Origin: a phage | Direction: 5' to 3' (one strand) | NCBI GenBank assembly: GCA_033697325.1 | Contig: GCA_033697325.1_4854.1 | Length of the DNA: 46,335 nucleotides | Part shown: positions 5,158 to 34,636 of the stretch, one piece after another | Numbering within the stretch: the first letter of the stretch is position 1 | Layout: the number at the start of each line of letters is the position of its first letter | Made by a program: the position numbers and the translations under genes | The notes under the pieces: model-generated | The model's input: the letters and a program-made list of their open reading frames with translations, nothing else | Told to the model about the DNA's origin: nothing | The model's database searches: none

Positions 5158-5637
5158 TTATTTGATGATCAGTTTTGGTTTGCCGTCGGTGATGGCACAA
5201 CCCTTAATTTCAATCCCGGCCTTTATCGCATTTTTAATTGCTGCGTTATCTGCCGACACTTTCACAACTCGGTACTGCTCAGGAAGCTGCTCAACAGGAA
5301 CAAACACATCAAGAACTGGTGACGGTTTGCCAAGAGTGATACTGAACAATTTACCTTTGATATTTGTCTTTCCTGACGCCATCATGTTTTGACGAAGATA
5401 ATCTTTAAGGTTATCTATCTTCGCAACTAAAACACGCTTACGCTCAGAAAGACGGTCAATCTCGGATTTAAGTCCAGCTTCATCAGCTTCAAGCTCACGA
5501 ATGTAAGCAGCAACCATTTCAGCCTTTCCTTCAAACTCCTCTTCAATAAGATTGATGGTATCTTCAATCTGCTCCCGTGGAATATCCTCCATCGCCAGCA
5601 GTTCATTAAGCTGTTTGGTTATCTCGTATAGATGCAT
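5158..5637 (-). CDS. Gp157-like phage protein (Sak4-associated)
   Basis: Coiled-coil N-terminus and overall resemblance to the siphovirus Gp157 family. Position between Sak4 and the SSB-like gene. Start uncertain (ATG 5637 or GTG 5652). Confidence 0.5.
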   Translation of the reverse strand: MHLYEITKQLNELLAMEDIPREQIEDTINLIEEEFEGKAEMVAAYIRELEADEAGLKSEIDRLSERKRVLVAKIDNLKDYLRQNMMASGKTNIKGKLFSITLGKPSPVLDVFVPVEQLPEQYRVVKVSADNAAIKNAIKAGIEIKGCAITDGKPKLIIK

Positions 5638-6448
5638 AATATTTAATCTCACTCAAAAGTGGGTTCTCACCTTTTTCAAAAGGAATTTCAGGTTCAAGGT
5701 TGTATCTGTTTTTAGCATTAACATACCCAATACGACCATCACCAGAGGTGATAAGAACTCGCTGACCAGTCTGAACAACCTTTCCAAACTTGGTTACCTG
5801 CCCTTTCTTATCAGTCTCAGTCCCTTTCACAAACTCCTCATTCCTGATGTAAATTACAGCATCACTAAGATTTACATAACCAGAAACAGAAGCATCATGC
5901 ATGTCAAGTGTGTAAACTGTGTATTCATCAGCATCAGGGCGATTCTTCATCTTTTTAACACCTGCGTGTGCAAGATAAATGATGCTCATCCCTTTTTCTT
6001 TGCGAAGATACTTACATGCATTTATTATTTCAGCGTGCATTTCAGAAACAACAATATATCCTTTGTTGTAACCACCAGCAGCAGAACCAACGTTGTCAAC
6101 ACCGTAATTTTCACAAACCTCATGCTCAAACATTGAATGCAGGCTTGTGATTGAGTCAATTACAAGCGTTTTGTAATTATGTTCCTCAGTAATTAATGCG
6201 CGTAGCTGTGACAGCAAGTCATCTTTTGTGCTTGTTTTTCGTTTAGCATCAGCGCGCTTCAGAACAGGAAATGAGTCAGGTTTCTTTTCATCATCCCAGT
6301 CGTCAAAAACACCAGTTATCTCTTCTGCCTGAATAAAAACTGGGCTTGGAAACAGCGCCGCAAGTGTTGTTTTGCCTACACCTGGAGTACCAACCAATGT
6401 TATGATTGGTGCTGCTGGTTTTGGTTTTTGAATCATTGATAAGCTCAT
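5606..6448 (-). CDS. Sak4-like RecA-type ATPase (ssDNA annealing / recombination)
   Basis: Walker A LVGTPGVGKTT near the N-terminus, RecA-like core, length about 280 aa. SD gagagga before ATG 6448. Confidence 0.7.
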   Translation of the reverse strand: MSLSMIQKPKPAAPIITLVGTPGVGKTTLAALFPSPVFIQAEEITGVFDDWDDEKKPDSFPVLKRADAKRKTSTKDDLLSQLRALITEEHNYKTLVIDSITSLHSMFEHEVCENYGVDNVGSAAGGYNKGYIVVSEMHAEIINACKYLRKEKGMSIIYLAHAGVKKMKNRPDADEYTVYTLDMHDASVSGYVNLSDAVIYIRNEEFVKGTETDKKGQVTKFGKVVQTGQRVLITSGDGRIGYVNAKNRYNLEPEIPFEKGENPLLSEIKYYASIRDNQTA

Positions 6449-6524
6449 AGTGTCCTCTCGATTTAACTCAGCATATCGCTGGTGTAACTTAAAGATACGT
6501 CAACGTGATGGTAAACGCAATACC

Positions 6525-6553
6525 TTGACGAAAATTTTTTTTGAGTTCATTAT
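6525..6553 (+). promoter_or_regulatory. Putative sigma70-like promoter for Cro-like gene
   Basis: TTGACG, 17-nt spacer, CATTAT. Confidence 0.35.
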
Positions 6554-6582
6554 TGCTGCATACAGATAGCAGAGGTAAACAC

Positions 6583-6825
6583 ATGAAAAGCATCGCAGAA
6601 CAGATAAGAGAAATGGAACAGACGAAGCTGTCAGAGCTGATTGATTATGTTGGAGGGCAATCACAACTGGCAAGGTTTCTTGGTGTGTCAAAACAGGCTG
6701 TTAATCAGTGGGTGTCAAGAGGAAGAATTAGCGCTACAGCAGCAATTGATGCCGATAAACTTACTGGTGGAGTTTTCAGAAAGGAAGATTTAAGGCCAGC
6801 CGTTACAAAATGGATTGTTAAATAA
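6583..6825 (+). CDS. Cro/CI-type helix-turn-helix transcriptional regulator
   Basis: HTH segment QSQLARFLGVSKQAVNQW. SD agaggtaa before ATG 6583. Own terminator downstream. Embedded on the opposite strand within the leftward replication operon. Confidence 0.65.
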   Translation: MKSIAEQIREMEQTKLSELIDYVGGQSQLARFLGVSKQAVNQWVSRGRISATAAIDADKLTGGVFRKEDLRPAVTKWIVK

Positions 6826-6828
6826 TAA

Positions 6829-6852
6829 AGCCCGCGTTTGCGGGCTTTTTGT
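6829..6852. terminator. Bidirectional intrinsic terminator
   Basis: agcccgc-gttt-gcgggct hairpin flanked by an A-run and a T-run. Confidence 0.7.
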
Positions 6853-6871
6853 TGTGTTTGCTGCCTCTTTG

Positions 6872-7267
6872 TTAAATCCCTTTCGAACTCAAGCTGTCTT
6901 TCTCTCTCCTGCCTCCGTACTCTTTGTTTACTTCCTCGTACGGAACGCCAAACGCCTTGCAGAAATTAAATAGTGCGTCACCTGCAAACACTTCGCTTGG
7001 ATGCCAGCTTCCTGAATGTCTTGCAACATCCCTGTATGAAGCTGTCACTATGCCGACATTGTTTTTGTATTTTATCCTGCAAAACAAAACGTCATCATCA
7101 ATACAGACTCCCATATTGCAACGGAACACAGGGAACTTCCAGTAGTAAACCTCCATCAGGTGTTTACCTGTCATCAGAGAGATTGCGTTGTGATGCCCAC
7201 CTTCAGGGTCTTCGGATTCAAAGTAATCAAACAATCCCTTCATTACGATGAACTTGTAGTTAATCAT
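6872..7267 (-). CDS. Hypothetical protein
   Basis: ORF of 131 aa. ATG overlaps primase stop (ATGA coupling). Confidence 0.5.
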   Translation of the reverse strand: MINYKFIVMKGLFDYFESEDPEGGHHNAISLMTGKHLMEVYYWKFPVFRCNMGVCIDDDVLFCRIKYKNNVGIVTASYRDVARHSGSWHPSEVFAGDALFNFCKAFGVPYEEVNKEYGGRREKDSLSSKGI

Positions 7268-9597
7268 ATCTCAACCTCATCATTTGTTAATTTGTAAATA
7301 ACTGCCTTGTTGGATGTTCTTTTTGCGCTTTCATCAATACAAATAACCCCATCAGATAGTAACTTATCAACGCACCTCTCAACATCTGCGCGCTTATATC
7401 CACCGTCTTTTGCTACCCCTTTAATCATTGCTGTTTTAGTCATTCCACGTTTCACATATTCTTTAACCATGGAGAACAGTCCTTCAACCCTTTCCTCCAT
7501 TGCTTTAGACTTCGCTCCGGAAATACTGTCAGCACGCATCATCAGGTCGCTTGTTGATTTAATTGTTAATGCTACCGCATATCTCAAGTGCTCCATGGTT
7601 ATAACTCCAGTATCGCACGCGAGAATGCCAGCAATCTTTGCCACCTTCACAGCACATCTGTTTATCAATGGATGATAGCCAGTACCGTTTTCTACATGCT
7701 TTCTTGCAACAGTTTTAATCCATGAGAAGAAATCCTTAGCGAGCTGAGAAACTTCAGGCGTAGCTTTTATAATCCGCCTTTCTTTTTGACTGATGATTGA
7801 GTCTGTCCAGTTTTTGTGCCCAGCTGTTCCGCCATTTATTATTGTTTTTATGGTCAGTTGCATATCCATAGGTAGATCACAGTAGTTTACGTTTTCGTTT
7901 TCGTCAGCAATCTCCTGTAACTCCTGCATAATCATTGCGCGACCCATAAGACCTGACTTAATGTTTTCTTCAGTAATAAGGCGCTTAAACTGATCATCAG
8001 TAGACACACCAAAGATTGAAAAAAATGGATTCCTTATAGCTCCATCAATTCTGTTTATCACATCATCAAACTGACACTTAATGTCAACAGGGTCTGCCTG
8101 TATCTCATTTTCCTCAATAGCCATTAACAGCATAGCCTTTCTTTTTTCGAAAGACTTAATGAAATCCTCAGTAACCCGCTGGTCACAATAAAGAACTTCT
8201 GACGTGTAAGCCTCCATGATCGCACCAGCGGTTGCCATGTTGTACTCGCTTACTTTCTGACCAACAACACTCCCAAGTTTTATCCCAATCTCATCCATGA
8301 TGATATTAAACATCTGGTTAGCGCAAAGACCTTCATATATCGCACGTTCTGAACGTATCTTACCGGCAACCGTCTTACTTAATCCTGAGCAATCAATTAT
8401 CTTTTGTAGCGCTGCAAGAACATCACCTTTACCTGAACCAGAGCCAGCGATACCAACAGCAAAAAGGTTTGGCAAAGCCTTCCTGTTTGTAAGGTAAATA
8501 TCAGATGACGCTCCGCAAATCATGGATGCAGCGTGCAATGCAGCAAGTGCTGCAATATTCTCTCGCTTCTCTGCACAGTTCTTATTAATCCACGCCGTAA
8601 GGCGACCAACAAATCCAGGGGGATAACGGACATCAACACTTTTGTACTCTACAGGGCATTCACCAACACCCATAGCCATCTCTCGCTCGAAAGACTCAAG
8701 TTTCTCAATTTCCTCTGGCGTAGCCTCAAAAGTTACTTGCCTTACCCATCCTCCCTCTTGTGCCAGATAAACAAGAGTTCCTGCGGTTATCTTGTCGTCA
8801 ATTCCATCTTTACCAAATGAATGCCATTTTGCATCCATTTCTTCTGGTCGGTATTTGCTAAACTGTGATGACCAGTTGTTCCACAGATCAAAACCATTAC
8901 CGTCAGTTGCTTCATGGATAGCCATCCCCACATTTATCCACGGATTGTACTCATCACCATCCTTGATGTATTTGAGCATGTCCTCCATTTCAGCAATGCT
9001 GTAATTTTTACTATCGAGCGTGAAAACCTCATCTTCAGATCGCTCAGGACGAAGCAGAAGTTCAATAAGTTGATATGGAGCTTCAGTTATCTCAGAAGGA
9101 GAGCCATGCTCGGCTTCATAAAAATTACCTGACTTATGGAAAGATCCGCAACCAATAACGAAACCAGATGATTTAAAGTCAATGCCATTAAATCTTCTGT
9201 CATGAGATCGCAGCTTCATTCCTTCAGGAAGTTTGTAATAGATATGGCGACCACCTCCACCAGTCTTTACCGTAAAACCAGATTCATCAGCAAGTTCAAC
9301 ATCTAACGCATCACACAACGCCTCATATCCATCATCACCACCATTCCTTGGGTCAATATCAACAACAAGGTACCCATTAACAAGAACGCCGAATGACTGT
9401 AACTTGCCATACTTAGCCATGCTTTCAATCTGCTCATCATCCCACTGAACACCAAGCTGCCAGTTACTCATAATCGGATGCTTTCCCGCAGCCTTGCATT
9501 CCGGATCGCCACAAGTACAGTTGCGCCACTCATCCATCGGATGAATGTCGATAATAGGGAAGCCGCATTTGCGATAATCTTCATAACCAATCATCAT
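7264..9597 (-). CDS. DNA primase/polymerase (prim-pol N-terminal domain) with C-terminal P-loop NTPase-like region
   Basis: VDIDPRNGGDDGYEAL and CxxC motifs resemble bifunctional prim-pol; downstream GIAGSGSGKG P-loop. ATG 9597 overlaps the upstream stop. Confidence 0.7.
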   Translation of the reverse strand: MMIGYEDYRKCGFPIIDIHPMDEWRNCTCGDPECKAAGKHPIMSNWQLGVQWDDEQIESMAKYGKLQSFGVLVNGYLVVDIDPRNGGDDGYEALCDALDVELADESGFTVKTGGGGRHIYYKLPEGMKLRSHDRRFNGIDFKSSGFVIGCGSFHKSGNFYEAEHGSPSEITEAPYQLIELLLRPERSEDEVFTLDSKNYSIAEMEDMLKYIKDGDEYNPWINVGMAIHEATDGNGFDLWNNWSSQFSKYRPEEMDAKWHSFGKDGIDDKITAGTLVYLAQEGGWVRQVTFEATPEEIEKLESFEREMAMGVGECPVEYKSVDVRYPPGFVGRLTAWINKNCAEKRENIAALAALHAASMICGASSDIYLTNRKALPNLFAVGIAGSGSGKGDVLAALQKIIDCSGLSKTVAGKIRSERAIYEGLCANQMFNIIMDEIGIKLGSVVGQKVSEYNMATAGAIMEAYTSEVLYCDQRVTEDFIKSFEKRKAMLLMAIEENEIQADPVDIKCQFDDVINRIDGAIRNPFFSIFGVSTDDQFKRLITEENIKSGLMGRAMIMQELQEIADENENVNYCDLPMDMQLTIKTIINGGTAGHKNWTDSIISQKERRIIKATPEVSQLAKDFFSWIKTVARKHVENGTGYHPLINRCAVKVAKIAGILACDTGVITMEHLRYAVALTIKSTSDLMMRADSISGAKSKAMEERVEGLFSMVKEYVKRGMTKTAMIKGVAKDGGYKRADVERCVDKLLSDGVICIDESAKRTSNKAVIYKLTNDEVEI

Positions 9598-9998
9598 TTA
9601 ATTCTCTCCACATAAGCAGTATCGCGCGTAACCGTCTTGCATCTGTACTCCCTTCTTGTGTACACGCCAACAGCGTACAAAGCATTGCGCAATTGCTTAA
9701 CGTCTTTTATCAACGTAAACTCATCAAACACAAAATGCTTCCTGACACCTTTACCCATCTTTCTCACAAACTGGTAAGTTTCTTCCTGTTTAGTTCCAAT
9801 GGGAAAATCACCACAAAAAAAACCCACCGAAGCGTCAATACCATGGGATTCACGATACTTCTCAGCAGCCTTTCTCGTTGTAAACCGTTTCGCATAATCA
9901 ATATCGTCAGTGTATGTATCATCATCAAAACGTAAATACACCGCACACGCAGAACCATCCGCATCAACACCTGGCTTGTCAAGATAATAAAATTTCAT
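9594..9998 (-). CDS. Hypothetical protein
   Basis: ORF of 134 aa with SD ggggtgag before ATG 9998. Confidence 0.5.
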   Translation of the reverse strand: MKFYYLDKPGVDADGSACAVYLRFDDDTYTDDIDYAKRFTTRKAAEKYRESHGIDASVGFFCGDFPIGTKQEETYQFVRKMGKGVRKHFVFDEFTLIKDVKQLRNALYAVGVYTRREYRCKTVTRDTAYVERIK

Positions 9999-10013: not shown

Positions 10014-10232
10014 TCATTTAATCCGTTTCACCCACAAACCATCTTCCTTAACCCGCGTCTTAAACATCCAGCCGCTCTTTACAGCAATCTTGCTAAGGCT
10101 CATTCTGAAACTTGGCAAATCATTAACAACAAACCGATCAAAATGAAAAACCTTCTCTTCACCAACCAACATTTTGCACACAAAATCGTGAACCTCAGCT
10201 ATCGCACTCCCGAATCGGTATTTAATATTCAT
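10014..10232 (-). CDS. Hypothetical protein
   Basis: ORF; ATG 10232 is preceded by SD agggggaaa. Confidence 0.4.
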   Translation of the reverse strand: MNIKYRFGSAIAEVHDFVCKMLVGEEKVFHFDRFVVNDLPSFRMSLSKIAVKSGWMFKTRVKEDGLWVKRIK

Positions 10233-10422
10233 CACTTTCCCCCTCATGGATTTTGAAATTTGATAAAAGTATAAAAAGATACAAGCGAGCAGTCAACACA
10301 TTTCATCGCCACCAATTGGGTTGACGCCATGTGGAAAACAGCGTATAAAAATACCACAGGAAAGAATTTTCCCTTTCACATCAAAATGTTAGACAAATCC
10401 TAAATTTGCTAATTCCATGTTA

Positions 10423-10545
10423 CGGGAAATAGGAACGTCAAGAAAATCAGATATTTAATCTCTATTTCACATTCCTGAGGAAATAGTGGGGTGGTAAAAA
10501 AAATTGAAGAGGGAAAATTATAAACCACCCTCTCGGGAAATAGGA
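10423..10545. repeat. Iteron-like direct repeats (CGGGAAATAGGA x2 plus a GGAAATAG variant) in the control region
   Basis: Exact 12-mer at 10423-10434 and 10534-10545; related copy at 10479-10486. Spacing about 55 bp. AT-rich stretch 10650-10790 follows. Confidence 0.4.
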
Positions 10546-10821
10546 AAACGGGACAAAACTGGAAGTCTTTAAAAATAAAAGGTTTTCCACTTCCAGTAAC
10601 AAAAGTTTCATGGCTAACACAATTCTTTAACAAATAACCAGCTTAATTGCTGGTTTTTGTGTTTCTGTAGCGTAATGTATTGATATCTATAATAAATATA
10701 AAGAAGATCTTAATATACTTTATAGAGGTAATAAACAAAGGTCACTATTAGTAACACATGTAACTATACATGTAAGCTAGCCTTCACTAACATTTAGTCG
10801 TGCTTTTTCTTTCTCTGTGTG

Positions 10822-10850
10822 TTGACGTAGAATCATCGTTGATGTAGATT
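10822..10850 (+). promoter_or_regulatory. Promoter for rightward small-gene operon, carrying two copies of the recurrent motif
   Basis: TTGACG(TAGA), 17-nt spacer, (TGATG)TAGATT. Confidence 0.5.
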
Positions 10851-10880
10851 GGACTCATCGAAACAAGAGAGGGTGAAGAG

Positions 10881-11027
10881 ATGAAAATCAAAGACCGTGA
10901 AGAATTTGAAGATGCACAGGCTATGGCACGCATTGCAGTTGAGCGCATAAACAACAGTATTCCTGCTGAAGCATTCTGGAATGCAGCGATGCAGGCTTTA
11001 ATATCTGCGTATGGGTTAAGCAAATGA
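10881..11027 (+). CDS. Hypothetical small protein (48 aa)
   Basis: ATG with SD gagagggtgaagag; below the 60-aa ORF track cutoff, found by reading. Confidence 0.4.
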   Translation: MKIKDREEFEDAQAMARIAVERINNSIPAEAFWNAAMQALISAYGLSK

Positions 11028-12746: not shown

Positions 12747-13169
12747 ATGGCTAAAAAGCTATTCAGTAAAGAAAATCAACCACAAAACAAACGCGGGAAG
12801 GATAAGCGTAAGCTGCTTGTTGAGGCTCTTGAGAGAAAGGGTTTTAGTGAGGAAAAGCTCTATGACACCATTGTTGAGATGGCGATGATTGAGCGCGACA
12901 CTGCAATGATGAAGGAGCTTATCGTTCGGTTCAGTCCGTTGCCGAAACCAGTTGCCCCAGTCTTTGAAGTGGACTTTCCTGATGATGGAACTCCGGTACA
13001 GAAGATTGATGCTGTCATTCGCGGTATAGCCGCTGGCGTTATACCTGTGGACATTGGTAAGACATTTGCCGATGTCATCAGGACTGGGCTTGATATTGCT
13101 GAAGTTACAGAACTCGCCGCGCGCCTTGAGCGACTGGAGAAATTACTGGAGCAGCAGAATGGCTCGTAA
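12747..13169 (+). CDS. Terminase small subunit (putative)
   Basis: 140 aa, basic N-terminus, lies directly upstream of and overlaps the large terminase. Confidence 0.55.
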   Translation: MAKKLFSKENQPQNKRGKDKRKLLVEALERKGFSEEKLYDTIVEMAMIERDTAMMKELIVRFSPLPKPVAPVFEVDFPDDGTPVQKIDAVIRGIAAGVIPVDIGKTFADVIRTGLDIAEVTELAARLERLEKLLEQQNGS

Positions 13170-14583
13170 ACGCCTATCCGCACTGGCAATTGAAAAACTG
13201 GAAGCGCAGGTTGATGATGCAATGACAGATGTCGCAGAGTCTGCCATCTTTGGCATCTGCGACATGCAAAAGAACATCATTAAGCGGTTAAGGATGACAG
13301 CTACTGGCGTTGATGACGTGACCAACGCAACCACTCATGCTGACCACCTGATTCCGGCAAAGCTGGAGCGCCTGCTTTATCCCAAACGATTTAAGTTTGT
13401 CTATGGTGGCCGTGGGTCAGGGAAGACAAGAACGATTATCACCATCCTTACCGAGCGAGCAAGGTTTCGACCTGACCGCTTTGCCTGCTTTCGTGAGATT
13501 CAGCAATCCATTGAGGACTCAAGCTATCAGGAGCTTGTTGACGAAATAGCCCGCAAGGGTGAATCGGCAGAGTTTCGCGTTATCAATAATGAGATAACTC
13601 ACAAAAAGACCAAAGCGAAGTTTCGCTTCAAAGGGTTGTATCGCAATCAGACAACCATTAAGGGCTTTGCTGGTATTACCGTCGGCTGGGTAGAGGAGGC
13701 AGAGAACGTCAGTCAGACAAGCTGGGATATTCTTGTTCCCACCATCCGCGCTGCAAATTCCGAGCTGTGGTGTTCATTCAACCCCAACAAGGAAACAGAC
13801 CCAACATGGAAAAACTGGATTTCACCTTATCACTCACAGATGGTTGATGGCATATTCGAAAACGATGAAATTCTGATTATCGAATGTAACTATTCAGACA
13901 ACCCGTGGTTCTGGGACACTCCCCTGCCGTCCGCTATGGAGCAAATGAAGCGAACTGATTACGACCGTTATCGCTGGATTTGGATGGGAGCATTCAACAA
14001 GCGCAGCGACGAGCAGGTCTTTGGCGGTAAGTGGCACATTGATAACTTTGAGGTTAAGTCTGAATGGCATGGGCCATACTTCGGAATGGACTTCGGGTTT
14101 TCCACGGATCCTACCGCAATGGTTGAGGTTTATATCGAAGAATTACCCGGGGGGCGTCGCAACATTTATATTAATCGCGAGTATGGCAAGGTTGGTCTTG
14201 AGATTACCGATACACCAGCTGCGATGGAGCAATCATTCCCGATGGCTAAGCGTGCGCGATGGTATGCTGACTGCGCGCGTCCCGAAACCATAAGCCACAT
14301 CAAGCGTTCTGGCTTTGATATTCACCCGTGCACGAAATGGCCGGGTAGCGTTGAAGATGGCGTTACGTGGCTGCGCGGCTGTGACAGCATTGTCATTCAC
14401 GAACGATGCAAGGAAATGCAGAATGAGGCAGCAATGTACAGCTACAAGGTTGATAAGCTGACGGGGAATGTGCTGACTGATATTGTTGATGCATATAACC
14501 ACTACTGGGATGCGGTTCGCTACGCACTCAATGATCACATCGTCCAGCGCGGTAGCGGGATGCTAATCCGGCGCAGGCGATAA
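13159..14583 (+). CDS. Terminase large subunit
   Basis: Walker A GGRGSGKT and terminase-type ATPase plus nuclease domain architecture. ATG at 13159 in frame with the longer ORF. Confidence 0.85.
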   Translation: MARKRLSALAIEKLEAQVDDAMTDVAESAIFGICDMQKNIIKRLRMTATGVDDVTNATTHADHLIPAKLERLLYPKRFKFVYGGRGSGKTRTIITILTERARFRPDRFACFREIQQSIEDSSYQELVDEIARKGESAEFRVINNEITHKKTKAKFRFKGLYRNQTTIKGFAGITVGWVEEAENVSQTSWDILVPTIRAANSELWCSFNPNKETDPTWKNWISPYHSQMVDGIFENDEILIIECNYSDNPWFWDTPLPSAMEQMKRTDYDRYRWIWMGAFNKRSDEQVFGGKWHIDNFEVKSEWHGPYFGMDFGFSTDPTAMVEVYIEELPGGRRNIYINREYGKVGLEITDTPAAMEQSFPMAKRARWYADCARPETISHIKRSGFDIHPCTKWPGSVEDGVTWLRGCDSIVIHERCKEMQNEAAMYSYKVDKLTGNVLTDIVDAYNHYWDAVRYALNDHIVQRGSGMLIRRRR

Positions 14584-34559: not shown

Positions 34560-34636
34560 TGGTGGACACGGACGGATTTGAACCTTCAATCAGCCGATTA
34601 TGAGTCGGTTGCTTTAACCAATTAAGCTACGCGTCC
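34560..34636 (-). tRNA. tRNA with CAU anticodon (elongator Met or lysidine-modified Ile2; not initiator-like)
   Basis: 77-nt cloverleaf folded by hand: 7-bp acceptor stem including one GU, D-arm with GG, anticodon loop CUCAUAA, T-loop GGTTCAAATCC, discriminator A, encoded CCA. G1-C72 pair argues against initiator. Confidence 0.75.

What the first reader, a model, noticed from the sequence alone, without database searches (positions are those of the whole stretch)
10250..10880. 630-bp control region with iteron-like repeats and an AT-rich segment
Between the leftward replication genes and the rightward small-gene operon lies a stretch with two exact CGGGAAATAGGA 12-mers and a third partial copy, an 8-bp inverted repeat (10560-10596) and an AT-rich block (10650-10790). 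The only ORF of 60 aa or more here is a doubtful 74-aa minus-strand ORF (10409-10633). This is a candidate replication origin or regulatory RNA locus.
Basis: seen in the sequence. Interest (0 to 1): 0.5.

Follow-up and report, generated by a model that had tools for sequence, protein, structure and literature searches.

The report
Likely phage replication origin with iterons
The 630-bp gap between this phage's two early gene blocks is most likely its replication origin, an ordinary kind of element not yet described for this phage group; it has short protein-binding repeats in interchangeable "specificity types", a host bending-protein site and the genome's most AT-rich stretch.

Summary
CGGGAAATAGGAA occurs twice exactly (10423, 10534). 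The core GGAAATAG has a third direct copy (10479) and an inverted copy (10462). The AT-rich block is the lowest-GC 120 bp in the 46-kb genome. The 74-aa ORF is not conserved.

Comparing 18 related loci gives this anatomy:
- Back-to-back early promoters P_L and P_R1.
- A ~280-bp stretch that exists in at least five specificity types, each with its own 9-mer repeated in both orientations (GGGAAATAG here).
- One conserved IHF-consensus site in every type.
- A conserved terminator, then a 99%-conserved AT-rich palindrome, then promoter P_R2.

The adjacent 777-aa Prim-Pol/helicase ends in a predicted winged helix. Its variable residues sit in the recognition helix and wing, and they form classes that match the repeat classes. 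Two small winged-helix genes next to the region (73 and 134 aa) look accessory.

In the related phage seszw, the homologous region survived every published genome-reduction mutant, while the small winged-helix gene and most neighbouring genes were deleted.

Best reading (about 0.55): an iteron-type, IHF-assisted origin crossed by a short non-coding transcript. It is a new member of a known kind and works like P4 ori/alpha and the lactococcal phage c2 origin. There is no origin mapping or binding data. Interest is moderate.

The parts
10268..10296 (-). P_L, the leftward early promoter: TTGACT, 17-nt spacer, TATACT. It drives the 73-aa, 134-aa and Prim-Pol genes.
   Evidence: The consensus scan scores it 10 of 12. 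TGTGTTGAC is shared with P_R2, and TGGGTTGAC in P_R1 differs at one base. The hexamers are kept in all type A loci and three of the five type B loci.
10321..10349 (+). P_R1, a rightward promoter: TTGACG, 17-nt spacer, TATAAA. It reads into the repeat region. A weak repeat copy, GGAAAACAG at 10333-10341, lies in its spacer.
   Evidence: Read from the sequence; the scan missed it because the last base of the -10 is A. TTGAC[AG], 17 nt, TAT[ATC]A[AC] is present at the same position in all 14 loci of types A-D although the spacers differ. Type E has TTGACA, 17 nt, NATACT.
10423..10435 (+). Iteron copy 1, CGGGAAATAGGAA.
   Evidence: Conserved in gmqsjt-1, ECO111 5-P, L025 and L026.
10445..10457 (+). 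IHF-consensus site AATCAGATATTTA (WATCARNNNNTTR), between iteron copies 1 and 2.
   Evidence: Every one of 18 loci of all types has a match at a matching position, against 0.02-0.13 expected per locus. The consensus positions are kept while the N4 varies, and the orientation is flipped in types D and E. Also present in Skatevirus and Bas81.
10462..10470 (-). Iteron copy 2 in inverted orientation (CTATTTCAC on the + strand), about 38 bp from copy 1.
   Evidence: The same + / 38 bp / - arrangement is found in types A, B and C.
10478..10486 (+). Iteron copy 3, AGGAAATAG. It is specific to this window and absent in the other type-A genomes.
10488..10530 (.). G-run and C-run inverted repeat (GGGGTGGT ... 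ACCACCC) around a 28-nt A-rich spacer. This is the centre of the repeat array.
   Evidence: Read from the sequence. Longer G and C homopolymer runs occupy the same place in relatives, including distant ones. Function is unknown.
10534..10546 (+). Iteron copy 4, CGGGAAATAGGAA, followed by a weaker AACGGGACAAAA.
   Evidence: The core is conserved in the type-A relatives.
10558..10597 (.).
   Evidence: I12. It is broken without compensation in gmqsjt-1 and ECO111 5-P.
10636..10665 (+). Intrinsic terminator AACCAGC-TTAATT-GCTGGTT plus a T-run. It marks the predicted 3' end of the P_R1 transcript.
   Evidence: The stem is invariant and the loop variable in all 12 loci then held and in the eight loci added later.
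10660..10820 (.). Conserved AT-rich block, proposed as the DNA-unwinding element. It holds the imperfect palindrome 10686-10726 centred on AAGATCTT (GATC at 10706-10709) and the direct repeat ACATGTAA at 10756 and 10768.
   Evidence: It contains the lowest-GC 120-bp window of the genome. Positions 10686-10725 are 99% conserved over 11 loci, against 73-89% in most of the downstream coding sequence. The GATC is conserved in all loci. The palindrome occurs nowhere else in the genome.
10822..10850 (+). P_R2: TTGACG, 17-nt spacer, TAGATT. It is the promoter of the rightward small-gene operon, which starts at 10881.
   Evidence: Conserved in most of the 155 phage records that match this stretch, including Skatevirus and Bas81.
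7264..7473 (-). C-terminal winged-helix domain (about residues 709-777) of the 777-aa Prim-Pol/PriCT-2/DUF3987 protein (whole gene 7264-9597). It is the candidate reader of the iterons.
9594..9998 (-). L (134 aa): an N-terminal domain of about 60 aa plus a winged helix paralogous to S. Accessory protein.
   Evidence: Alignment. Identity clusters follow types A, B and E. L is absent in types C and D, Skatevirus and the Klebsiella/Yersinia relatives, and broken in L027.
10014..10235 (-). S (73 aa): a minimal winged-helix protein and the first gene of the leftward operon. Accessory protein.

Best explanation
The region is most likely the phage's origin of replication, sharing the space with its divergent early promoters.

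Proposed mechanism:
1. The Prim-Pol/helicase binds the type-specific 9-mers through its C-terminal winged helix. Here the 9-mer is GGGAAATAG: three direct and one inverted strong copy, plus weaker ones.
2. Host IHF binds the conserved site between the inverted copies and bends the DNA, so a compact complex forms.
3. The helicase loads and opens the adjacent AT-rich block, and the Prim-Pol domain primes.
4. P_R1 sends a ~290-nt non-coding transcript across the repeats, and the conserved terminator stops it at the edge of the AT-rich block. This transcription may activate or prime the origin, as in phage c2, or may simply be regulated by protein bound at the repeats.
5. The small winged-helix proteins S and L modulate the process rather than drive it.

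What the sequence shows:
- the repeats and their types;
- the layout of the region;
- the IHF consensus;
- the promoters and terminator, as consensus matches conserved across relatives;
- the conservation pattern;
- the predicted winged-helix folds;
- the co-variation of the Prim-Pol tail with repeat class.

What is inferred:
- that replication starts here;
- who binds the repeats;
- that IHF binds its site;
- that the AT-rich block melts;
- that the transcript exists and matters.
For: 1. The repeats are non-random: a 20-fold local enrichment of the 8-mer.

2. The stretch between P_R1 and the terminator occurs in at least five types, each with its own 9-mer in both orientations:
- A: GGGAAATAG
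- B/C: GGGAAGCGG
- D: GGCAAATAG
- E: GGCATTTAG
- E': GGCAATTAG
The layout is conserved. Wider relatives carry GGGATAA, CGGTAAA, GACTTTAGA or TTTAGAGAC repeats in the equivalent gap. The Skatevirus array of four direct copies at 10-11 bp spacing next to an AT-rich tract is a textbook iteron layout.

3. An IHF consensus is present in 18 of 18 loci, against 0.02-0.13 expected.

4. The lowest-GC segment of the genome lies beside the repeats. It is 99% conserved and is the best-conserved DNA locally.

5. The Prim-Pol/helicase ends in a predicted winged helix. Its variable positions cluster in H2, H3 and the wing, and its classes A / B+C / D+E+E' / Klebsiella / Yersinia match the repeat classes.

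6. Window versus YX3973 is 92-100% identical over nearly all of 5501-9600 (two 100-bp dips to 80% and 86%), with a far deeper dip at the Prim-Pol C-terminal codons (67-81%). The next divergent stretch is L, S and the repeats.

7. The recombinant L021 has type-B repeats and an otherwise A-like Prim-Pol, but carries the B-type wing residues 763-766.

8. In seszw, the homologous 514 bp was fully retained in every mutant record listed, and about 70 seszw records match at 99% identity or more. The adjacent 2 kb fell to 21-26% coverage, and the S homologue was deleted. The experiment is described in PMC9825161.

9. No ORF is conserved in the region, and the repeat type does not follow the packaging genes.

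10. There is a precedent. The origins of c2-type phages lie between two tandem early promoters at a divergent junction, carry no ORF, and come in several sequence types (PMC7150918).
Against: - There is no direct evidence that replication starts here.
- The GC-skew minimum is confounded with gene orientation.
- DnaA boxes are not conserved.
- The winged-helix classes do not separate D, E and E', whose repeats differ at two central bases.
- The number of independent lineages is small, so part of the co-variation could reflect shared ancestry.
- The C-terminal model rests on a two-sequence alignment (mean pLDDT 61.9), and only about 50 of the 204 modelled residues are confident.
- The CiPGr design targeted annotated genes, so retention of an intergenic region is weaker evidence than a failed deletion. 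It also fits the region simply carrying essential promoters.
- The strict IHF consensus is absent in the Klebsiella and Yersinia relatives.
- The near-perfect conservation of the palindrome calls for a sequence-specific reader that has not been identified; AT-richness alone would not demand it.
Confidence: 0.55

Rival explanations
1. The region is an early-transcription control region only. The repeats would be operators for type-specific regulators (the L and/or S winged-helix proteins, or the Prim-Pol tail acting as an autorepressor) that set the activity of P_L, P_R1 and P_R2, with replication starting elsewhere. This can also coexist with the origin reading, as in iteron plasmids where the initiator also represses its own promoter.
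For: Three sigma-70-type promoters with related extended -35 sequences lie in the region. A weak repeat copy overlaps P_R1 in types A, B and C, and in Sf11 a good copy fills the spacer. Two winged-helix genes are the first genes of the leftward operon. L clusters follow types A, B and E. Retention in the seszw mutants would equally follow from essential promoters.
Against: Most copies lie 70-230 bp downstream of P_R1 and more than 270 bp upstream of P_R2, not over promoter hexamers. There are up to 12 copies per locus, with an IHF site and an AT-rich block, which is more than an operator set needs. S does not track repeat type and is dispensable in seszw. L is missing in types C and D, Skatevirus and the Klebsiella/Yersinia relatives, and broken in L027. 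The conserved Cro-like regulator does not vary with type.
Confidence: 0.2
2. The functional product is a ~290-nt non-coding RNA made from P_R1 (about 10356-10660, + strand). It would be a regulatory RNA, or a replication primer or activator whose type-specific sequence acts as RNA.
For: A promoter and a terminator conserved in position bracket a variable, ORF-free interior in all types. The predicted fold is more stable than shuffles (z = -3.1). Between E and E', the inner inverted pair changes on both arms (TAAATGCC/GGCATTTA to TAATTGCC/GGCAATTA). In phage c2 the early transcript through the origin is reported as essential (cited in PMC7150918).
Against: The opposite strand folds at least as well (z = -3.65), so the signal comes from DNA-level inverted repeats. 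There is no Rfam match even at E <= 1. Individual copies depart from the consensus independently rather than in compensating pairs. All copies of a type share one sequence, which stems do not require. The conserved IHF consensus, with its flipped orientation in D and E, is a duplex-DNA feature. The 10558-10597 hairpin is broken without compensation in close relatives.
Confidence: 0.12
3. The region is a packaging recognition site (pac-like or cosB-like), or the boundary of a terminal repeat, with repeats bound by the small terminase and bent by IHF.
For: The Sf11 GenBank record has an exact 335-bp terminal overlap whose inner boundary falls in the A-run between the inverted repeats. From textbook knowledge, the layout 'inverted protein sites around an IHF site' resembles lambda cosB (R3-I1-R2), and P1 pac has repeats flanking the cut.
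Against: Relatives are reported as terminally redundant and permuted, without fixed ends (KlebP_265, PMC11769527), or as headful packagers (STGO-35-1, PMC8954984). The window and other assemblies open elsewhere and show no overlap here. The site is 2.2 kb from the terminase genes. The pre-TerL 140-aa protein and TerL are mosaic in a pattern that does not follow repeat type: the window's gp140 equals that of types B and E but is only 43% identical to type-A ECO111. The Sf11 boundary sits at homopolymer runs that commonly break assemblies.
Confidence: 0.05

Closest known systems
Satellite phage P4 ori/crr with the alpha protein (primase, helicase and C-terminal winged-helix origin-binding domain). 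From textbook knowledge; not retrieved here.
   Same: One multifunctional replicase carries a primase, a helicase and a C-terminal winged helix. The origin is built of short octamer/nonamer repeats in both orientations. By coincidence both proteins are 777 aa.
   Different: The primase here is an archaeo-eukaryotic Prim-Pol with PriCT-2, which to my knowledge differs from the P4 alpha primase type (not checked here). There was no sequence match to any solved structure. No second cis site like crr was seen. The repeats differ, and here they come in several exchangeable types.
Origins of lactococcal c2-type (Ceduovirus) phages, lying between promoters PE1 and PE2.
   Same: The origin lies in the non-coding junction between divergently oriented gene blocks. 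It is bracketed by the first two tandem early promoters and has no ORF or ribosome-binding site. It occurs in several unrelated sequence types within otherwise similar phages, and a non-coding early transcript crosses it (PMC7150918 and the references cited there).
   Different: The c2 origins replicate plasmids without any phage protein, so the host machinery and the transcript are enough. Here a phage replicase with a type-matched DNA-binding tail is the likely initiator. The host is Gram-positive and there is no sequence relationship.
Iteron plasmid origins and their winged-helix initiators (mini-F RepE, R6K pi, pSC101 RepA).
   Different: S is a single 73-aa winged helix, whereas RepE and pi have two. 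S does not track repeat type and is dispensable in a relative. The repeats are 9 bp rather than 19-22 bp. No conserved DnaA box is present.
SaPI (staphylococcal pathogenicity island) replicons: Pri/Rep with an iteron origin. From memory.
   Same: Short iterons flank an AT-rich segment, and the helicase specificity is matched to the iteron type and differs between otherwise related elements.
   Different: Primase and helicase are separate proteins there. I did not test any sequence or structural relationship.
Phage lambda ori with the O protein and transcriptional activation. Textbook knowledge.
   Same: Iterons lie next to an AT-rich region, nearby transcription is needed for firing, and lambdoid phages show ori/O specificity types.
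   Different: Lambda ori lies inside the O gene, and O recruits the host DnaB through P. Here the origin is intergenic and the phage brings its own helicase-primase.

Membership tests
Iteron-type replication origin | A cluster of several copies of one short repeat in non-coding DNA, more than chance gives | tested here: met
   Four strong copies plus weaker ones in 279 bp, a 20-fold enrichment. Relatives carry up to 12 copies.
Iteron-type replication origin | An adjacent AT-rich segment able to act as an unwinding element | tested here: met
   The lowest-GC 120 bp of the genome starts at 10655 (24.2% GC).
Iteron-type replication origin | A cognate initiator, encoded nearby, whose DNA-binding domain matches the repeats | tested here: inconclusive
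   The classes of the Prim-Pol/helicase C-terminal winged helix match the repeat classes, and there is a local divergence island. The classes do not separate D, E and E', and there are no binding data.
Iteron-type replication origin | Host accessory sites (IHF and/or DnaA boxes) | tested here: met
   An IHF consensus is present in 18 of 18 loci. DnaA boxes are not conserved, which is acceptable for an origin served by its own helicase.
Iteron-type replication origin | Replication actually initiates here, or the fragment confers autonomous replication | not testable with these tools
   The only indirect support is that the homologous region is retained in every seszw reduction mutant listed.
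P4 alpha-type replicase and origin | A single protein with primase, helicase and C-terminal winged-helix origin-binding domains | tested here: met
   Prim-Pol, PriCT-2 and DUF3987, and a predicted C-terminal winged helix. This is a match in domain logic only.
P4 alpha-type replicase and origin | Sequence homology to P4 alpha | tested here: not met
   Pfam finds Prim-Pol, PriCT-2 and DUF3987, which to my knowledge are not the domains of P4 alpha. There is no match to any solved chain at E <= 1. This system therefore works like P4 alpha but is not a member of its family.
c2-type transcribed origin | A non-coding stretch between two tandem early promoters at a divergent junction, with no ORF, in several sequence types | tested here: met
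   P_R1 and P_R2, no conserved ORF and at least five types. Description of the family taken from PMC7150918.
c2-type transcribed origin | Replicates without phage proteins, and the early transcript is essential | not testable with these tools
   This needs plasmid replication assays and a P_R1 knockout.
Any described RNA family (Rfam 15) | A match to a covariance model | tested here: not met
   At the gathering threshold the whole window gives only a tRNA. Positions 10200-10900 give nothing at E <= 1.
Packaging site (lambda cosB or P1 pac type) | Genome ends or the packaging series start at the site | tested here: inconclusive
   The overlap boundary of the Sf11 record lies here, but relatives are reported as permuted or headful (PMC11769527, PMC8954984). 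There are no raw reads to test.
Packaging site (lambda cosB or P1 pac type) | The specificity of the site co-varies with the terminase recognition subunit | tested here: not met
   The mosaic patterns of gp140 and TerL do not follow repeat type.

The most novel reading that the evidence does not exclude
The repeat types together with the matched winged-helix tail of the Prim-Pol/helicase would form exchangeable 'replication specificity cassettes' in virulent phages. These would act like plasmid incompatibility groups, deciding which co-infecting relatives can use each other's replicase. The P_R1 transcript would be a type-specific origin RNA that primes or licenses firing, as in c2 or ColE1, rather than a by-product.
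Probability: 0.15. Interest if true: 0.65.

Novelty: new member of a known kind. Interest (0 to 1): 0.4.

Why it matters
The phages of this group (Cedarrivervirus, Buchananvirus, Skatevirus and unclassified relatives, proposed as "Skateviridae" in PMC11769527) are being developed against Salmonella, E. coli, Shigella and Klebsiella. They are also being used for genome reduction. None of the papers I retrieved describes their origin of replication.

A defined origin with a defined specificity determinant would have three uses:
- It tells engineers which non-coding DNA must be kept.
- It explains why this intergenic block is a hotspot of mosaic exchange.
- It offers a compact test case for how an initiator and its repeats change specificity by single-base steps (GGGAAATAG, GGCAAATAG, GGCAATTAG, GGCATTTAG).

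The kind of element is classical, so it would not surprise a specialist.

Tried and rejected
1. Protein-coding reading of the 74-aa ORF. Rejected: its length and frame differ within type A, and nothing is shared across types.

2. Known RNA families. None match.

3. CsrA-sponge idea (many GGA triplets). Dropped: types D and E lack GGA in their repeats.

4. S (73 aa) as the repeat reader. Rejected:
- S of type-A L025 is 95% identical to type-B S.
- S of Sf11 (type C) and Sa179lw (type D) share an identical putative recognition helix although their repeats differ.
- The S homologue is deleted in viable seszw mutants.

5. L (134 aa) as the universal reader. Rejected: L is absent in types C and D and in wider relatives, and broken in L027, although it may assist.

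6. DnaA-dependent origin. The two DnaA-box matches in the window are not conserved.

7. The AT-rich palindrome as a repeated operator. It occurs nowhere else in the genome and does not resemble the DNA upstream of the Cro-like gene.

8. A sigma-70 promoter inside the AT-rich block. None was found by the scan.

9. Terminal repeat or pac site. See the fourth rival explanation.

10. Homologue search with the Prim-Pol C-terminal 204 aa. It returned one truncated protein, so the second AF2 model is shallow.

11. No supplementary tables of PMC9825161 are held. I could not confirm whether the ORF annotated inside the seszw intergenic region was explicitly targeted for deletion.
Full report
**What the window is.** The 46-kb window is a siphophage genome. 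It is related at about 87% identity over the region to Escherichia phage ECO111 5-P and Salmonella phage gmqsjt-1, and more distantly to Shigella phage Sf11 (Cedarrivervirus), E. coli phage Sa179lw (Buchananvirus) and Klebsiella phage YX3973. It has no match in complete E. coli genomes.

To the left of the finding, on the minus strand, lie three genes:
- a 73-aa gene (10014-10235; I call it S);
- a 134-aa gene (9594-9998; L);
- a 777-aa Prim-Pol/PriCT-2/DUF3987 primase-helicase (7264-9597).

Further left are a Cro-like regulator and a Sak4-type annealing protein. To the right a string of small genes starts at 10881.

**Checking the observation.**
- The exact repeat is 13 nt, CGGGAAATAGGAA, at 10423 and 10534.
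- The core GGAAATAG recurs at 10479.
- An inverted copy, CTATTTCAC, sits at 10462.
- A 13-nt exact repeat arises in 1.5% of Markov simulations.
- The 8-mer with up to 1 mismatch is 20-fold enriched in the 279-bp core relative to the genome.
- The inverted repeat at 10558-10597 has 9-nt arms, but it is broken in the closest relatives.
- The AT-rich block holds the lowest-GC 120-bp window of the whole genome.
- The 74-aa ORF changes length and start within its own type, and nothing like it is shared across types.

**Anatomy.** The sequence and a four-way alignment, later extended to 18 loci, give this order of elements:
1. P_L (minus strand; TTGACT, 17 nt, TATACT; 10268-10296).
2. P_R1 (plus strand; TTGACG, 17 nt, TATAAA; 10321-10349).
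3. A variable stretch of about 280 bp that carries the repeats.
4. A terminator hairpin with an invariant stem and a variable loop (10636-10655 plus a T-run).
5. A highly conserved AT-rich block (10660-10820).
6. P_R2 (10822-10850).
7. The first rightward gene.

P_R1 keeps its hexamers and its position in all 14 loci of types A-D although the spacers differ, and type E has TTGACA, 17 nt, NATACT. Promoter and terminator calls are consensus matches supported by conservation. No transcript has been observed.

**The repeats come in types.** The stretch between P_R1 and the terminator is not alignable between many relatives, yet it keeps the same design with a different 9-mer:

| Type | Repeat | Loci |
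|---|---|---|
| A | GGGAAATAG | window, gmqsjt-1, ECO111 5-P, L025, L026 |
| B and C | GGGAAGCGG / GGGAAGCC | ECO95 1-6-1, L008, L021, L024, L027; Sf11, L007, L009 |
| D | GGCAAATAG | Sa179lw, L012 |
| E | GGCATTTAG | YX3973, L019, L022 |
| E' | GGCAATTAG | L020 |

- Neighbouring types differ by single bases, and all copies within a genome change together.
- Types A-C share the order plus copy, 38 bp, minus copy, about 65 bp of A-rich DNA, then plus copies.
- Types D and E have three to six minus copies followed by three to six plus copies.
- Individual copies depart from their consensus independently rather than in compensating pairs. That is what sites for a common binding factor look like, not RNA stems.

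More distant relatives show the same thing in the equivalent gap:
- Skatevirus KFS-SE2 and Seszw_1 carry GGGATAA, with four direct copies 10-11 bp apart next to an AT-rich tract and four or five more beyond it.
- Bas81 carries CGGTAAA.
- Klebsiella phages VLCpiS13c and 6991 carry GACTTTAGA.
- Yersinia phage P400 carries TTTAGAGAC.

**DNA-level signals.** Each of the 18 loci of types A-E has a match to the IHF consensus WATCARNNNNTTR at a matching position among the repeats, against 0.02-0.13 expected per locus. The consensus positions are held while the four free positions vary, and the site is flipped in types D and E. Skatevirus and Bas81 also have one; the Klebsiella and Yersinia relatives lack a strict match.

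The palindrome at 10686-10725, centred on a conserved GATC, is 99% conserved over 11 loci. Most of the coding sequence downstream is 73-89% conserved. DnaA boxes are not conserved.

RNA folding gives z = -3.1 for the plus strand and -3.65 for the minus strand, so there is no strand preference. Rfam gives nothing.

**Who reads the repeats.** I tested three candidates.

- S of type-A L025 is 95% identical to type-B S.
- S of Sf11 (type C) and of Sa179lw (type D) are 85% identical with the same putative recognition helix.
- In seszw, the S homologue is cleanly deleted in viable evolved mutants.

*L (134 aa).* It is an S paralogue with an extra N-terminal domain. Its clusters do follow types A, B and E. 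But L is absent in types C and D and in all wider relatives, and broken in L027. It can at most be an accessory factor.

*The Prim-Pol/helicase.* It is 91-100% identical across types, yet its variable positions pile up at residues 724-766.
- The variable residues map to H2, one face of H3, strand 2 and the wing tip.
- Their classes (A; B+C; D+E+E'; Klebsiella; Yersinia) match the repeat classes.
- Between the window and YX3973, nucleotide identity is 92-100% over nearly all of 5501-9600 (two 100-bp dips to 80% and 86%). The one deep dip to 67-81% lies at the C-terminal codons of the Prim-Pol gene. That dip is 2.3 kb from the repeats and flanked by near-identical sequence.
- The recombinant L021 has type-B repeats and an A-like Prim-Pol elsewhere, but carries the B-type wing residues 763-766.

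This is the best available lead for the repeat reader. It has limits: few independent lineages, no separation of D, E and E', and no binding data.

**Experimental hint from the literature.** Yuan and colleagues reduced the genome of the Skatevirus seszw by iterative CRISPR deletion of annotated genes (PMC9825161), and the mutant genomes are public.
- The 514-bp intergenic region homologous in position and design to this finding was fully covered, at 98.8% identity or more, in every seszw mutant record listed. That includes the smallest, at 35,993 bp.
- The adjoining 2 kb of small genes falls to 21-26% coverage in the smallest mutants.
- Late mutants carry point changes inside repeats. One of them turns a degenerate copy into the consensus.

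This fits an essential cis element. It would equally follow from essential promoters, and I could not check whether the region was itself targeted.

**Rivals.**
- *A pure transcription-control region.* This remains possible and is not exclusive of an origin. The number and placement of the copies, the IHF site, the AT-rich block and the dispensability or absence of S and L argue that control is not the whole story.
- *An RNA product.* A transcript is predicted, but nothing indicates that its structure matters.
- *A packaging site.* This was prompted by an exact 335-bp terminal overlap in the Sf11 record, whose boundary lies between the inverted repeats. However, relatives are reported as permuted or headful (PMC11769527, PMC8954984), this window shows no such overlap, and the mosaic types of the pre-TerL protein and TerL do not follow repeat type.

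**Comparison with known systems.**
- It works like the P4 ori/alpha system: one protein with primase, helicase and a winged-helix origin binder, and short repeats in both orientations. It is not a member, because the domains are Prim-Pol and DUF3987 and no sequence match exists.
- Its placement and its non-coding transcript parallel the origins of lactococcal c2-type phages. Those lie between PE1 and PE2 at the divergent junction, lack ORFs and occur in several sequence types (PMC7150918).
- It shares repeats, an AT-rich segment and an IHF site with iteron plasmids.

**Verdict.** The origin interpretation is the best supported (about 0.55) but unproven. The element is a new member of a known kind, and interest is moderate.

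Noticed in passing
window 10488-10530; L001, L003, L013, L033, L034 and L035 at the equivalent places: Homopolymer G or C runs flanked by A-runs recur at the centre of the repeat array, even in distant relatives. The window has GGGGTGGT/ACCACCC, gmqsjt-1 has G10...C8, Sf11 has G8, the Klebsiella phages have two C7-C9 runs, and Yersinia P400 has two GGGGGGTACC motifs after A-runs. Their function is unknown; they could mark a priming or start site.
   Followed up: partly
L013 (Sf11, MF158038) 1-335 and 46120-46454: The GenBank record has an exact 335-bp terminal overlap. Its inner boundary lies in the A-run between the inverted repeats of the intergenic region. It is probably an assembly overlap of a permuted genome, but a real terminal repeat is not excluded.
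   Followed up: partly
L033 (VLCpiS13c), L034 (Yersinia P400), L035 (phage 6991): In these relatives the Prim-Pol and gp131 block is inverted relative to the window. It directly follows the Cro-like gene and lacks the S and L genes. The repeat and AT-rich gap lies after gp131, still just upstream of the small-gene operon.
   Followed up: partly
L031 and L032 (seszw mutants 290L and 290S) against L030: The genome-reduced seszw mutants have lost the S-like gene and carry point mutations inside repeats: GGGATAAG to GGGGTAAG, and in 290L TGAGATAAAAC to TGGGATAAAAC, which creates a consensus copy. The ORF annotated as 'putative membrane protein' inside this intergenic region is not kept intact.
   Followed up: partly
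window 9594-9998 (-); L027 3001-3219: L is a fusion of an N-terminal domain of about 60 aa with an S-like winged helix. In L027 (an NCBI Salmonella assembly contig) it is split into fragments, which suggests it is dispensable.
   Followed up: partly
window 12747-13169 and 13054-14583: The packaging genes are mosaic. The 140-aa protein before TerL is 98.6% identical to those of ECO95 1-6-1 and YX3973 but only 43% to those of ECO111 5-P and Sf11. TerL is 96.6% identical to ECO111 5-P but 55-61% to the others.
   Followed up: partly
window 10014-10247 (-): The real start of the S gene is probably the ATG at 10235, preceded by AGGGGG, giving 73 aa as annotated in gmqsjt-1. The ATG at 10247 listed by the ORF finder (77 aa) is less likely.
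   Followed up: partly
window 34560-34636 (-): A single tRNA-Met gene (anticodon CAT). Sf11 instead carries tRNA-Ser and tRNA-Arg.
   Followed up: no
window 6541-6825 (+): The Cro/YdaS-type HTH gene sits alone on the plus strand between leftward genes and is 91-98% conserved across all repeat types. Its likely start is the ATG at 6584 (80 aa). Its target sites were not identified.
   Followed up: no
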